A stretch of DNA of 4,983 nucleotides from a virus (IMGVR_UViG_2778260995_000003:1-4983); one strand, 5' to 3'; shown: positions 582-4,904, counted from the first letter of the stretch. The notes: a model not told the origin generated them from the sequence alone. Program-made: numbers and translations.

Positions 582-626
582 AGCTACTAGCGAATGCCAG
601 TAGCCAAGGTGGGCTGCGGGCTTAAT

Positions 627-872
627 TTAAAGCGGTGTGATTTGCAACCATTCAGACGCACTAATCTCAAAGCGACGTCCGTTAGACAACTCGATAATCA
701 CGGGTAATTCACCTAGCTCCAGCCAGGCGTTTTTTTCCGTTGGAAAACTAACAGTAGAGATCTGGTAATCCGATACGCTTTCAGCCAGTCGGCAACTTTT
801 AAACACATCACCAAGGGCGGACGCGAAGAATTCATTTAGCTCATATTCAATCTGCTCTTTAGCTGCTGTCAT
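627..872 (-). CDS. Hypothetical protein (81 aa), last ORF before cos
   Basis: ATG at 872 to TAA at 627-629, on the same strand as the late operon. Codon choice looks typical for E. coli (GAA, AAA, CTG, GCG). The ribosome-binding site is weak (GATGAGACAGAAAC before the ATG). I recognise no similarity to any protein. Confidence 0.45.
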   Translation of the reverse strand: MTAAKEQIEYELNEFFASALGDVFKSCRLAESVSDYQISTVSFPTEKNAWLELGELPVIIELSNGRRFEISASEWLQITPL

Positions 873-1004
873 GTTTCTGTCTCATCAACTTGAATAGGGT
901 AATCAGGAATGGATGCGAACTACAGGTCGTCTGCACCATCTTTCAGATTAAAGCAGCTCCACATTTCGTCAGGGTCAGTATTAGCCGACATCTCTCGCAC
1001 CTGA

Positions 1005-1115
1005 TTAATATTTGGCGATATTACAACAGGCACTCAATGAATGCATGTTGTAAGCCTCTCGCTCAGGAGCACTGAATCGTTCCATTATTGAATTAAATTT
1101 CTGCGACTCTTTCAT
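1005..1115 (-). CDS. Hypothetical small protein (36 aa, MKESQKFNSIMERFSAPEREAYNMHSLSACCNIAKY)
   Basis: ATG at 1115-1113 is preceded by a consensus Shine-Dalgarno (AGGAGG, then TTTTG, then ATG). The supplied 91-aa ORF 1005..1280 is the same frame extended to an upstream GTG that has no ribosome-binding site. Support is the ribosome-binding site only; no similarity recognised. Confidence 0.3.
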   Translation of the reverse strand: MKESQKFNSIMERFSAPEREAYNMHSLSACCNIAKY

Positions 1116-1137
1116 CAAAACCTCCTGACAAAGATAC

Positions 1138-1157
1138 CGTGCGACCACGGTCGCACG
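1138..1157. promoter_or_regulatory. 20-bp palindrome CGTGCGACC-ac-GGTCGCACG (two 9-bp arms, 2-bp centre); possible operator or stable RNA hairpin
   Basis: Arms at 1138-1146 and 1149-1157 are exact reverse complements. The site lies 11 nt upstream of the AGGAGG of the 36-aa ORF on the minus strand. On the minus strand it is followed by GTATCTTTGTC, which is only weakly U-rich, so a terminator role is doubtful. Confidence 0.3.
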
Positions 1158-1445
1158 CTCCTGAATACATGCCCTGTTTCTTCCACCCTCGCACAGGGCT
1201 GGCGAGCATGAGGGACAAACCCGCGAATCATAAACGTGGTAAAAACCCGGTGTGCATCGTTTTTGATTATTCCCACACACTCACGCAGAAGGAATTCCCC
1301 GTCGGGCTACGGTCATGGTTAATGCAGGAATACGGCGACGATACAGCGCATAATGTGTCAGGCTTGAATACCTTTATCGAATCCCGGTAACGAATTCTCC
1401 TGACGTTCCAGTCAGGTGATGATATGCATGGTGAGATTCAGATAT

Positions 1446-1469
1446 GAAAAAGCCCCGCTAAAAGCGAGG
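1446..1469 (-). terminator. Intrinsic terminator downstream of the 124-aa cargo gene
   Basis: Minus strand reads CCTCGC-TTTTA-GCGGGG then CTTTTTCATATC (5 Watson-Crick pairs plus one G-U, then a T-run). It starts about 20 nt after the TAA at 1489-1491. On the plus strand the hairpin is not followed by a T-run. Confidence 0.55.
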
Positions 1470-1488
1470 TCATAAATCACTTAATATC

Positions 1489-1863
1489 TTATTGAGGACG
1501 CTGGAGTAATCCGTGCTGAGCGAGAGTTAGAGCAATGTCATAAGACCCTTGCCTGTCTTTATAGCAAGTTTTATCAACTAGCTCAGCTTTGCTAATTCCG
1601 GGTAAATCAAGAATCAGATTCGCAACTTCAATTGCCCTTTGGTACAACTTACCGATCTTTTTCTCCCCATGCTGTGGTTTTACATTCTTCAGATAACCGC
1701 TATCCGCCAGAGCGAGAAACGTTGCCCTTGGGCATCCCTTCTTTCTTGACGATTCGCTTTCTGTAACCTCTGCAACAGCTGCATCCCATGCATCACGAGG
1801 GGATATTGAATTATCAGCAACCAAATAATAAGCAATTAAAGCGGCGCGCGCGTATTGAGACAT
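1489..1863 (-). CDS. Hypothetical cargo (moron) protein, 124 aa (MSQYARAALIAYYLVADNSISPRDAWDAAVAEV...LTLAQHGLLQRPQ)
   Basis: ATG at 1863 to TAA at 1489. The supplied 141-aa ORF begins at a GTG at 1914 that overlaps the Rz 3' end; I prefer the ATG. The coding region is visibly AT-richer than the flanking R/Rz (about 43% vs about 50% GC by rough hand count). It has its own terminator and occupies the slot where lambda carries bor. No TM segment or lipobox; no similarity recognised. Confidence 0.55.
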   Translation of the reverse strand: MSQYARAALIAYYLVADNSISPRDAWDAAVAEVTESESSRKKGCPRATFLALADSGYLKNVKPQHGEKKIGKLYQRAIEVANLILDLPGISKAELVDKTCYKDRQGSYDIALTLAQHGLLQRPQ

Positions 1864-3327: not shown

Positions 3328-3364
3328 AGAAACAGAAAAGCCCAAGGCTTAAAACCTCGGGCTT
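3328..3364 (-). terminator. Intrinsic terminator in the late-operon leader (first of two; tR'-like position)
   Basis: Minus strand reads AAGCCCgAGG-TTTTAAG-CCTtGGGCTT (6+3 bp stem with one mismatch) followed by TTCTGTTTCT. It lies about 50-80 nt downstream of the candidate late promoter. Confidence 0.5.
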
Positions 3365-3419
3365 GAATTTGGATTACTGCCAGTGCGTACAACATTGGCA
3401 AAATATCAGATTTACATGA

Positions 3420-4617: not shown

Positions 4618-4904
4618 GCCTTGATTACCCCCTCTTTCAGCCAGATAACCTGCGTTCTCGCCATACCTTCCAGCGCGCATTCTTTTGCATACTCAGCATC
4701 GACAAAATGTGTGCGGCGGTCGATTTCGTCGTGACAGGCAGAACATGCAATGGTGGCAATCAGGTCTGGCGGTTTGATACCGGTACCGCCCAATCCAGCC
4801 AGCCGGATATGTGCCAGTACAGACGTTTCAGGATTGCCATTACATACGCCAGGGATTCTTGCCTGGCATTCCCGACCACGCGCTGCTTTTCTCAAATCAG
4901 CCAT
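4614..4904 (-). CDS. ybcO: YbcO-like protein (DUF1364-type putative zinc-binding nuclease, 96 aa)
   Basis: [64 protein letters not shown]... matches DLP12 YbcO as I recall it, with Cys-x-x-Cys-His and upstream Cys clusters. ATG at 4904 is preceded by AGGAGG plus 5 nt. The supplied ORF start at 4943 is an upstream TTG. Confidence 0.8.

What the first reader, a model, noticed from the sequence alone, without database searches (positions are those of the whole stretch)
873..1160. Small ORF with a consensus ribosome-binding site directly behind a 20-bp palindrome
A perfect AGGAGG at ideal spacing precedes a 36-aa ORF (1115-1005, minus strand), and 11 nt upstream of that site lies a 9+2+9 bp exact palindrome (1138-1157). 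This pairing resembles a repressor operator or a structured leader controlling a small protein such as a toxin, antitoxin or regulatory peptide. Immediately downstream of the TAA is a second possible mini-ORF (ATG 991 to TAG 920, 23 aa, acidic: MSANTDPDEMWSCFNLKDGADDL), and then the 81-aa ORF, so these may form a small operon. None of this is covered by the large annotated genes.
Basis: seen in the sequence. Interest (0 to 1): 0.45.

Follow-up and report, generated by a model that had tools for sequence, protein, structure and literature searches.

The report
Plasmid-partition site beside two gene relics
The palindrome is a copy of the DNA site that the partition protein SopB of the linear phage-plasmid N15 binds, and the two small reading frames behind it are debris of a longer gene and of a broken tRNA-like RNA gene, so this is a recombination scar in a prophage and not a new small-protein system.

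Summary
It is not a small regulated operon.

- **Palindrome (1138-1157).** Its 18-bp core GTGCGACCACGGTCGCAC is identical to the experimentally used SopB centromere sites IR1/IR4 of phage-plasmid N15.
- **AGGAGG, ATG and the first ~19 codons of the 36-aa ORF.** These are the start region of a 276-286-aa gene that follows the same site in N15-like phage-plasmids such as PhiR46_1. Homology stops at about 1060, so the ORF is a chimeric stump. It is open in all 7 copies compared, with 6 nonsynonymous and 1 synonymous substitutions.
- **The 23-aa mini-ORF.** It lies inside a broken copy of a covariation-supported tRNA-like RNA gene. It carries a stop at codon 11 in 3 of 7 copies and in all 21 distinct intact RNA genes aligned.
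- **The 81-aa ORF.** This looks like a real small gene, found only in Escherichia.
- **Setting.** The closest relatives are integrated lambdoid prophages with an integrase and no sopAB. The site is therefore probably an orphan carried in by recombination with an N15-like element.

Interest is low to moderate. The intact tRNA-like RNA family is the more novel by-product.

The parts
1138..1157 (.). N15-type SopB (ParB) binding inverted repeat; 18-bp core at 1139-1156, GTGCGACC-AC-GGTCGCAC
   Evidence: Perfect 9+2+9 palindrome. The core is identical to the N15 IR1/IR4 centromere oligonucleotides in PMC7205306 Table 4 and to IR4 at 45561-45578 in the N15 record. It differs from the F sopC site TGGGACCACGGTCCCA at the known specificity position.
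1121..1126 (-). Shine-Dalgarno AGGAGG inherited from the 276-286-aa gene
   Evidence: The stretch IR-GGTATCTTTGTCAGGAGGTTTTGATGAAAGAG is shared with PhiR46_1 and with more than 13 IMG/VR contigs, where it heads the long gene.
1060..1115 (-). 5' stump (about 19 codons) of a 276-286-aa gene of N15-like phage-plasmids (PHROG 2571)
   Evidence: Window 1060-1160 is 94% identical to PhiR46_1 and YDC107_1, and homology stops at 1060. PHROG 2571 profile positions 1-24 match with E=0.0025. The family N-terminus is MKELQKINSIMERLSALERKL.
1005..1115 (-). Chimeric 36-aa ORF (gene stump plus 17 codons read out of the RNA-gene upstream region); probably not a functional gene
   Evidence: Open in 7 of 7 composite copies, with 6 nonsynonymous and 1 synonymous substitutions. 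Not annotated by PGAP in L001, L130 or L131. Its TAA is the first three bases of the RNA's acceptor strand TAATCAGG.
897..1007 (-). Broken copy of a tRNA-like structured RNA gene. The 5' acceptor strand is at 1007-1000 and the 3' acceptor strand at 907-900. The 3' strand of the long arm and the 5' strand of the T stem are deleted, ACCA has become ACCC, and there is no terminator.
   Evidence: 78-81% identity to unannotated intergenic DNA of mEp390 and E. coli prophages. Intact copies fold as acceptor stem, two hairpins, long arm and T arm, with covariation.
1021..1053 (.). 33-bp near-palindrome upstream of the RNA gene, conserved in mEp390-type copies, followed by a degenerate extended -10 (TGTTGTAAT in the window against TGTGATAAT in intact copies)
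   Evidence: Inverted repeat I2 with 16-nt arms, 88% complementary. Hairpin -19.1 kcal/mol, z = -4.96. Alignment.
920..991 (-). 23-aa mini-ORF; not a gene
   Evidence: TGG is TGA at codon 11 in L157, L218 and L219 and in all 21 distinct intact RNA genes aligned. The ATG is lost in L007. All differences among copies are nonsynonymous.
627..872 (-). 81-aa ORF; probably a real small gene of unknown function at the extreme right end, just before cosQ/cosN
   Evidence: Ten protein clusters, those named Escherichia. Nine are 81-82 aa at 73-100% identity and one is a 52-aa fragment. The C-terminus is conserved. Annotated in RefSeq as WP_000122986. Identical in L001 and L130.
1158..1378 (.). Widespread lambdoid module whose homology ends at the inverted repeat. 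It contains a + strand 60-aa ORF (1208-1390), annotated in some RefSeq genomes.
   Evidence: 3651 of 5426 E. coli genomes match some part of window 600-1500; the listed hits lie mostly at about 1176-1378. PhiR46_1 has an inverted-repeat copy at each end of the module. The + strand ORF is broken in 7 of 20 distinct variants.

Best explanation
The finding sits on a mosaic joint in the variable region between the lysis genes and cos of a lambda-like prophage whose late operon runs on the minus strand.

**Shown by sequence**
- The palindrome is a copy of the N15-type SopB-binding centromere repeat (IR). In N15-like linear phage-plasmids, 4-5 such repeats are scattered over the genome. One lies between the lysis genes and cos, directly upstream of a 276-286-aa gene.
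- The window has kept that repeat, the gene's ribosome-binding site, its ATG and about 19 codons.
- At about 1060 the gene body was replaced by a piece of another phage that carries a now broken tRNA-like RNA gene, followed by an 81-aa gene.
- The 36-aa ORF is the chimeric read-out of this joint. The 23-aa ORF is a chance frame inside the dead RNA gene.

**Inferred**
- In an N15-like plasmid, SopB dimers bind the repeat, spread, and with SopA segregate the plasmid.
- The closest relatives of the window are integrated prophages without sopAB. The repeat here is therefore most likely an orphan that arrived by recombination. This fits the window's cosN, which is of the PhiR46_1 type.
- The repeat is probably inert unless an N15-like plasmid supplies SopB in trans.
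- On the late mRNA the repeat forms an 8-bp GC-rich hairpin. Q-modified RNA polymerase should read through it.
- The stump ORF may well be translated from its strong ribosome-binding site, but without selected function.
For: **Identity of the repeat**
- The 18-bp core is 18 of 18 identical to the N15 IR1/IR4 oligonucleotides used to build a working N15 centromere (PMC7205306) and to IR4 in the N15 record.
- N15 and F sites differ at one base per half-site, and the window carries the N15 base.
- Exact copies occur in at least 12 unrelated contexts on 119 or more IMG/VR contigs, up to 4 per stretch. Among them are the N15 IR3 and IR4 contexts and PhiR46_1's counterpart of IR2.

**Link to N15-like elements**
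- PhiR46_1 is N15-like: telL/telR, ParAB, and a ParB 74% identical to N15 SopB. It has 5 repeats. The one at 18013-18030 lies 23 nt before the 286-aa gene.
- The window's cosN GGGCGGAAGGCG equals that of PhiR46_1 and differs from lambda's.

**Stump ORF**
- Homology to the long gene ends at 1060, and PHROG 2571 matches.
- All full-length members listed are 276-286 aa; the longest contigs of most of them are about 46-47 kb.
- A frameshifted 104-aa version exists in L006.
- 6 nonsynonymous to 1 synonymous substitutions across 7 copies.

**Mini-ORF**
- Broken in 3 of 7 copies and in all intact RNA genes.
- The RNA structure has covariation: 11 pairs changed on both sides against 3.1 +/- 1.3 in shuffles, 0 of 500 shuffles as high.

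**Orphan status**
- The best whole-window matches are chromosomal. They lack window ~584-1137 (~550 bp) and have about 55 bp of unrelated sequence in its place.
- The complete related prophage L131 has an integrase, N and cI, no parAB, and one exact repeat.
- In 82 IMG/VR loci anchored on the neighbouring module, 35 repeats are exact, 28 carry the same 3 symmetry-breaking mismatches, 9 carry 1-3 other mismatches and 10 are deleted.
Against: - The window is only 5 kb, so absence of sopAB on its own replicon is inferred from relatives, not shown.
- The repeat is still perfect here and in 35 of 82 sampled loci. That could mean selection rather than recent arrival. The diversity comparison was unaligned and inconclusive.
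- The 36-aa ORF is open in all 7 copies and has a consensus ribosome-binding site. With only 7 substitutions, the 6:1 ratio cannot exclude a functional micropeptide.
- No binding, transcription or translation data exist for this locus.
Confidence: 0.8

Rival explanations
1. One reading: the palindrome is the operator or structured leader of a functional small protein (toxin, antitoxin or regulatory peptide), and ORF1, ORF2 and the 81-aa ORF form a small operon.
For: Consensus AGGAGG 5 nt before the ATG. ORF1 is open in 7 of 7 copies. All three frames lie on the late strand.
Against: - ORF1 is a chimera of a long gene's N-terminus and unrelated DNA, with 6 nonsynonymous to 1 synonymous changes.
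- ORF2 is broken in 3 of 7 copies and in all intact RNA genes.
- The same palindrome occurs in a dozen unrelated contexts.
- Pfam and NCBIfam give no hit for ORF1 or ORF2; the PADLOC library was not searched.
Confidence: 0.05
2. The palindrome works at the RNA level as an intrinsic terminator or attenuator that closes the upstream unit (the DUF6979 gene and the widespread module). Its identity to the SopB site is secondary.
For: - The terminator scan flags 1157-1138 on the minus strand: 8-bp stem, 6 GC pairs, tail GTATCTTTGT.
- The N15 GenBank record annotates IR4 as a 'putative rho-indep. transcription terminator'.
- The hairpin dominates the local fold.
Against: - The U-tract is poor, and the fold z-score is only -1.8 on the late strand.
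- A much better terminator already follows the DUF6979 gene at 1469-1453.
- Identical hairpins in unrelated contexts, several without any T-run, argue for a DNA-level protein site.
- Late transcription is Q-antiterminated (established lambda biology).
Confidence: 0.12
3. The orphan SopB site is kept because it acts in trans. When an N15-like phage-plasmid enters the lysogen, its SopB binds the chromosomal site. This either destabilises the incoming plasmid (centromere-type incompatibility) or alters expression of the prophage's late region.
For: - The repeat is exact in the window, in L131, L006, L156 and L218-L221, and in 35 of 82 module-anchored loci.
- N15-like plasmids of about 46 kb co-occur in E. 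coli.
- SopB spreading and silencing are documented (PMC7205306).
- A paper title cited in PMC11652158 reports that the N15 Sop system facilitates late gene expression. I could not read that paper.
Against: - 28 of 82 loci share a 3-mismatch version that breaks the symmetry, 10 of 82 have lost the site, and L002 and L130 carry single mismatches. This pattern is what decay of a neutral hitch-hiker would give.
- There is one site per prophage, against 4-5 per N15-like genome.
- No experiment exists.
Confidence: 0.1

Closest known systems
N15 centromere sites IR1-IR4 (SopB-binding inverted repeats) and F plasmid sopC
   Same: The 18-bp core GTGCGACC-NN-GGTCGCAC is identical to N15 IR1/IR4, and the central dinucleotide varies as among IR1-4. 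The position between the lysis genes and cos is that of N15 IR4 and of the PhiR46_1 repeats at 17793 and 18013. The site differs from F sopC (TGGGACCACGGTCCCA) only at the specificity base.
   Different: A single copy in what appears to be an integrated lambdoid prophage, with no sopAB in complete relatives. N15-like plasmids have 4-5 dispersed copies together with sopAB.
276-286-aa hypothetical gene of N15-like E. coli phage-plasmids (PhiR46_1 XSB42772, YDC107_1; PHROG 2571)
   Same: The same inverted repeat, spacer, AGGAGG, ATG and first ~19 codons at 92-94% nucleotide identity.
   Different: The window keeps only the stump. Everything after codon ~19 is unrelated DNA. A frameshifted 104-aa version in L006 shows that the gene also decays elsewhere.
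tRNA-like RNAs (the tRNA-like domain of tmRNA; bacterial Y-RNA-like YrlA). The comparison is from my own knowledge of these families and was not tested.
   Same: Intact relatives of window 897-1007 have an acceptor-type stem ending in ACCA and a 5-bp T arm with a GGTTCGAATCC loop.
   Different: About 123 nt, with two extra hairpins and a 14-bp arm whose 7-nt loop is GCAGACG. No Rfam hit, no ARAGORN call, and no tag reading frame. The window copy is broken.
Mosaic 'moron' region at the right end of lambda (bor, lambdap78, lambdap79)
   Same: The same genomic slot between Rz and cos, filled with interchangeable short modules.
   Different: None of the lambda genes is present, and lambda has no repeat-like palindrome there with up to 4 mismatches.

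Membership tests
N15-type SopB centromere site (IR / sopC-like) | 16-18-bp inverted repeat matching GTGCGACC-NN-GGTCGCAC | tested here: met
   18 of 18 identical to the IR1/IR4 oligonucleotides and to N15 45561-45578. Chance expectation with up to 3 mismatches is 0.01.
N15-type SopB centromere site (IR / sopC-like) | N15-specific base (C/G) at the half-site position that distinguishes it from F sopC (G/C) | tested here: met
   The window has TGCGACC; F has TGGGACC.
N15-type SopB centromere site (IR / sopC-like) | Cognate sopA/sopB on the same replicon | tested here: not met
   None in the window. The complete related prophage L131 has an integrase, N and cI and no parAB. For the window's own replicon beyond 5 kb this cannot be tested.
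N15-type SopB centromere site (IR / sopC-like) | Several dispersed copies per genome (4 in N15, 5 in PhiR46_1) | tested here: not met
   One copy in the window and one in the 40.8-kb stretch L131, which spans nearly the whole prophage. N15 has 4 and PhiR46_1 has 5.
N15-type SopB centromere site (IR / sopC-like) | Binds SopB and supports partition | not testable with these tools
   Needs a gel-shift or ChIP assay and a plasmid-stability assay.
Functional small protein gene (toxin, antitoxin or leader peptide) | ORF conserved under purifying selection across diverged relatives | tested here: not met
   ORF1 shows 6 nonsynonymous to 1 synonymous changes and exists only in the recombinant lineage. 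ORF2 has a stop at codon 11 in 3 of 7 copies and in all intact RNA genes.
Functional small protein gene (toxin, antitoxin or leader peptide) | Match to a known small-protein family | tested here: not met
   Pfam and NCBIfam give no hit. The only PHROG hit is the N-terminus of the 291-position profile 2571.
Functional small protein gene (toxin, antitoxin or leader peptide) | Translation initiation signal | tested here: met
   AGGAGG-5 nt-ATG. It is inherited from the long gene.
Intrinsic (rho-independent) terminator | GC-rich stem followed directly by a U-run | tested here: inconclusive
   Passes the permissive scan, with 5 T in the tail GTATCTTTGT. The tract is interrupted and the z-score is only -1.8.
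tRNA-like phage RNA (unnamed family, alignment A5) | Acceptor stem, long arm and T arm all able to pair, followed by ACCA and a terminator | tested here: not met
   The window keeps both acceptor strands and the first hairpin. It lacks the 3' strand of the long arm and the 5' strand of the T stem, and it has ACCC and no terminator.

The most novel reading that the evidence does not exclude
Orphan N15-type SopB sites are kept on integrated lambdoid prophages because they act in trans on co-resident N15-like phage-plasmids. They would serve either as decoy centromeres that cause partition incompatibility, a form of inter-phage competition, or as a handle by which the plasmid's SopB modulates the prophage's late region. 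The repeat would also serve as the preferred joint for module exchange between the two phage types.
Probability: 0.1. Interest if true: 0.55.

Novelty: new member of a known kind. Interest (0 to 1): 0.25.

Why it matters
For annotation, the 36-aa and 23-aa frames should not be called as genes, and a 'perfect RBS plus palindrome' can be a fossil of a recombination event. For phage biology, a plasmid-partition site travels into integrated lambdoid prophages. In this sample the homology between modules often ends at the site. That is a concrete trace of gene flow between phage-plasmids and integrative phages, which PMC10879196 reports as frequent. It also raises a testable question: do such orphan sites interfere with N15-like plasmids? 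The intact tRNA-like RNA family found on the way is unannotated and may deserve its own study.

Tried and rejected
- **Rfam.** Scans of the window and of the mEp390 region gave nothing for 873-1160. There was only a sub-threshold isrJ-like hit at 3337-3416 and noise.
- **ARAGORN.** It found no tRNA or tmRNA in the window or in L001, L004 or L005, so the tRNA-like element is not a standard tRNA.
- **Protein family libraries.** Pfam and NCBIfam on the small ORFs were empty.
- **N15 gp59, the gene after IR4.** I tested whether the long gene is its homologue. It is not, and neither protein has an informative Pfam domain.
- **Mobile-element idea.** I considered that the palindrome marks a miniature mobile element, because two copies flank the 220-bp module in PhiR46_1. 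I dropped this once the sequence matched the N15 SopB sites.
- **The + strand 60-aa ORF (1208-1390) as the true target of the palindrome.** It is broken in 7 of 20 variants, and no promoter-like site was found.
- **Promoter scan.** There is no sigma-70 match for the RNA remnant in the window. Its -10 has lost the A at position 2.
- **Literature.**
  - Searches for a described dispersed palindrome in lambdoid phages found nothing; the N15-directed search did.
  - Searches for the tRNA-like RNA found nothing relevant, and the Pas sRNA preprint concerns other loci.
  - Ravin & Lane 1999 and Ravin et al. 2008 are not held.
- **Genome-contig scan with an RNA motif.** It returned only chance hits in unrelated phyla.
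- **Diversity comparison of the repeat against its flanks.** It was unaligned and uninformative.

Full report
**Observation.**
- The 36-aa ORF runs 1115-1005 on the minus strand.
- AGGAGG is the complement of 1121-1126, 5 nt before the ATG.
- A perfect 9+2+9 palindrome lies at 1138-1157, 11 nt further upstream.
- A 23-aa frame runs 991-920, and the 81-aa ORF runs 872-627.
- The window has only two AGGAGG sites, both on the late strand and both followed by an ATG. The other one starts a real gene at 4902.
- The palindrome's 18-mer with up to 3 mismatches is expected 0.01 times.

**Setting.** The window is the right end of a lambda-like prophage with its late operon on the minus strand.
- In order it carries a DUF1364/NinG-like gene, rusA, Q, holin, lysozyme, Rz, a DUF6979 gene, the finding, the 81-aa ORF, cosQ/cosN and the start of Nu1.
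- The best whole-window matches are chromosomal E. coli prophages at about 96% identity. They lack window ~584-1137 (~550 bp) and have about 55 bp of unrelated sequence in its place.
- The full composite is in only 2 of 5426 complete E. coli genomes. It recurs in other assemblies and in IMG/VR contigs (L156, L157, L218-L221).
- One of the two genomes holds it in a prophage bounded by a tyrosine integrase on one side. That prophage has N, cI, replication genes, nin genes and Q, and no parAB.

**The palindrome.**
- An exact-match scan of IMG/VR found the 18-mer on at least 119 stretches, up to four times each, in a dozen unrelated flanking contexts. It is a dispersed element, not the private operator of this ORF.
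- One carrier, phage PhiR46_1, is an N15-like linear phage-plasmid with telL/telR, ParA/ParB and a protelomerase-sized first gene. Its ParB is 74% identical to N15 SopB.
- Table 4 of PMC7205306 lists the four N15 centromere sites used to build a working N15 centromere. IR1 and IR4 have the core GTGCGACCACGGTCGCAC, identical to window 1139-1156. IR2 and IR3 differ only in the central dinucleotide.
- Scanning the N15 record puts the sites as follows:
  - IR1 inside repA.
  - IR2 after the Q-like gene 40.
  - IR3 21 bp before the annotated late -35.
  - IR4 at 45561-45578, between the lysis genes and cos, annotated there as a putative terminator.
- The F plasmid SopB site TGGGACCACGGTCCCA differs at one base per half-site. 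That base determines F versus N15 specificity, and the window has the N15 base.
- PhiR46_1 has five sites. Two of them (17793 and 18013) flank a 220-bp module that is also window 1158-1378.

**The 36-aa ORF.**
- In PhiR46_1, YDC107_1 and about 35 E. coli genomes (14 of the 40 places on plasmids, most of about 46 kb), the repeat is followed by the same spacer, AGGAGG and ATG. These head an annotated hypothetical gene of 276-286 aa: 286 aa in PhiR46_1, and a frameshifted 104-aa form in L006.
- The window matches this at 94% down to position 1060 and not beyond. The first 24 positions of PHROG 2571 match the peptide.
- ORF1 therefore consists of about 19 codons of that gene (MKESQKFNSIMERFSAPER against MKELQKINSIMERLSALER) fused to 17 codons of unrelated DNA. 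It ends at a TAA that is the first three bases of the RNA element described next.
- Across seven copies of the composite the frame stays open. The seven substitutions are six nonsynonymous and one synonymous. That ratio is the neutral expectation, but the numbers are small.
- PGAP does not call the ORF.

**The 23-aa ORF and the RNA relic.**
- Window about 890-1057 is 78-81% identical to unannotated intergenic DNA in phage mEp390 and in E. coli prophages.
- There the sequence is a compact unit. It has an extended -10-like TGTGATAAT, an 8-bp acceptor-type stem, two small hairpins and a 14-bp arm. These are followed by a 5-bp T arm with a GGTTCGAATCC loop, ACCA and a rho-independent terminator.
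- On 21 distinct copies the structure is 97% paired. It has 11 pairs changed on both sides, against 3.1 +/- 1.3 in shuffles (0 of 500 as high) and 1-4 in slid controls.
- Rfam and ARAGORN do not recognise it.
- The window copy has lost the 3' strand of the long arm and the 5' strand of the T stem. It has ACCC and no terminator, and its -10 has lost the A at position 2.
- The mini-ORF lies inside this relic. It has TGA at codon 11 in all intact copies and in 3 of 7 composite copies, and its ATG is missing in L007. It is not a gene.

**The 81-aa ORF.**
- Ten protein clusters were found, those named Escherichia. Nine are 81-82 aa at 73-100% identity and one is a 52-aa fragment. The C-terminal half is conserved.
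- It is annotated in RefSeq, and it is identical in two genomes in which the relic region just upstream differs by about 5%.
- It is probably a real late-strand gene of unknown function. It does not depend on the two relic frames.

**How it most likely works.**
- Shown: the sequence identities and the mosaic structure.
- Inferred: in N15-like plasmids SopB binds the repeat and, with SopA, partitions the plasmid. Here the repeat came in with the PhiR46_1-type right end. The window's cosN GGGCGGAAGGCG is the PhiR46_1 type and not lambda's. The site has no cognate protein unless a phage-plasmid is co-resident.
- In an unbiased sample of 82 loci anchored on the neighbouring module:
  - 35 repeats are exact.
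  - 28 share three symmetry-breaking mismatches.
  - 9 have one to three other mismatches.
  - 10 are deleted.
  - Next to the long gene, 18 of 19 are exact.
- This fits function in phage-plasmids and decay elsewhere, but the lineages are not independent.
- The same left-hand module joins at least five different right-hand sequences at the repeat. The repeat is therefore a recurrent mosaic joint.

**Rivals.**
- The regulated small-protein model is essentially refuted.
- A terminator role on the late RNA is possible but weak, and it is not exclusive of the main reading.
- A trans-acting role for the orphan site cannot be excluded.

**Novelty.** The site type is known, and the ORFs are not real genes. 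What may be new is the record of this partition site as an orphan and recombination joint in integrated lambdoid prophages, and the unannotated tRNA-like RNA family. Gene flow between phage-plasmids and phages is documented in general (PMC10879196).

**Limits.**
- The window is 5 kb.
- Ravin & Lane 1999 and Ravin et al. 2008 could not be read. What I say about SopB function beyond the cited open papers rests on my own knowledge.

Noticed in passing
L005 2918-3089(-), L007 2418-2589(-), alignment A5; broken copy at window 897-1007(-): An unannotated family of tRNA-like RNAs in lambdoid and P22-like phages. It has its own -10-like element, an acceptor-type stem ending in ACCA, a T arm with GGTTCGAATCC, a 14-bp covarying arm and a terminator, and in L007 and most sampled copies it sits just upstream of what appears to be the terminase small-subunit start (shown only for L007). 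It is not in Rfam 15 and is not called by ARAGORN. Covariation is strong.
   Followed up: partly
window 1021-1053: A 33-bp near-perfect palindrome (hairpin -19.1 kcal/mol, z = -4.96) lies over the -35 to -10 region of the RNA gene. It is conserved in mEp390-type copies. In L230 and L234 it is also found downstream of the RNA. It may be an operator or a terminator.
   Followed up: partly
window 1208-1390 (+), inside the module 1158-1378: A 60-aa ORF on the opposite strand, annotated in RefSeq (WP_033560302), lies in a module for which 3651 of 5426 E. coli genomes match some part of window 600-1500 (listed hits mostly ~1176-1378). The frame carries stops or frameshifts in 7 of 20 distinct variants, so what conserves the module is unclear.
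   Followed up: partly
window ~545-556 (cosN, minus strand): The cohesive-end sequence is GGGCGGAAGGCG. It is identical to PhiR46_1 and L006 and differs from lambda's GGGCGGCGACCT and from N15's GGGCGGCGTCCG.
   Followed up: partly
window 3337-3416 (-), between Q and the holin: A sub-threshold match to the Hfq-binding sRNA isrJ (29.3 bits against a gathering score of 37, E=0.017) ending in a terminator hairpin. It could be a prophage sRNA or the late leader RNA.
   Followed up: no
L130 1767-1784, L157 507-524, against window 1139-1156: In some copies of the composite the central dinucleotide of the repeat is flipped (GT to AC) and one arm base is changed. This suggests inversion at the palindrome centre or exchange between oppositely oriented repeats.
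   Followed up: no
window 627-919 against 920-1160, compared with L001 and L130: The 81-aa gene and its leader are identical in three E. coli sources (0 differences in 293 nt, 627-919). The adjoining relic region differs by 12-14 of 241 nt. This sharp step in divergence suggests a further recent exchange at about 920.
   Followed up: no
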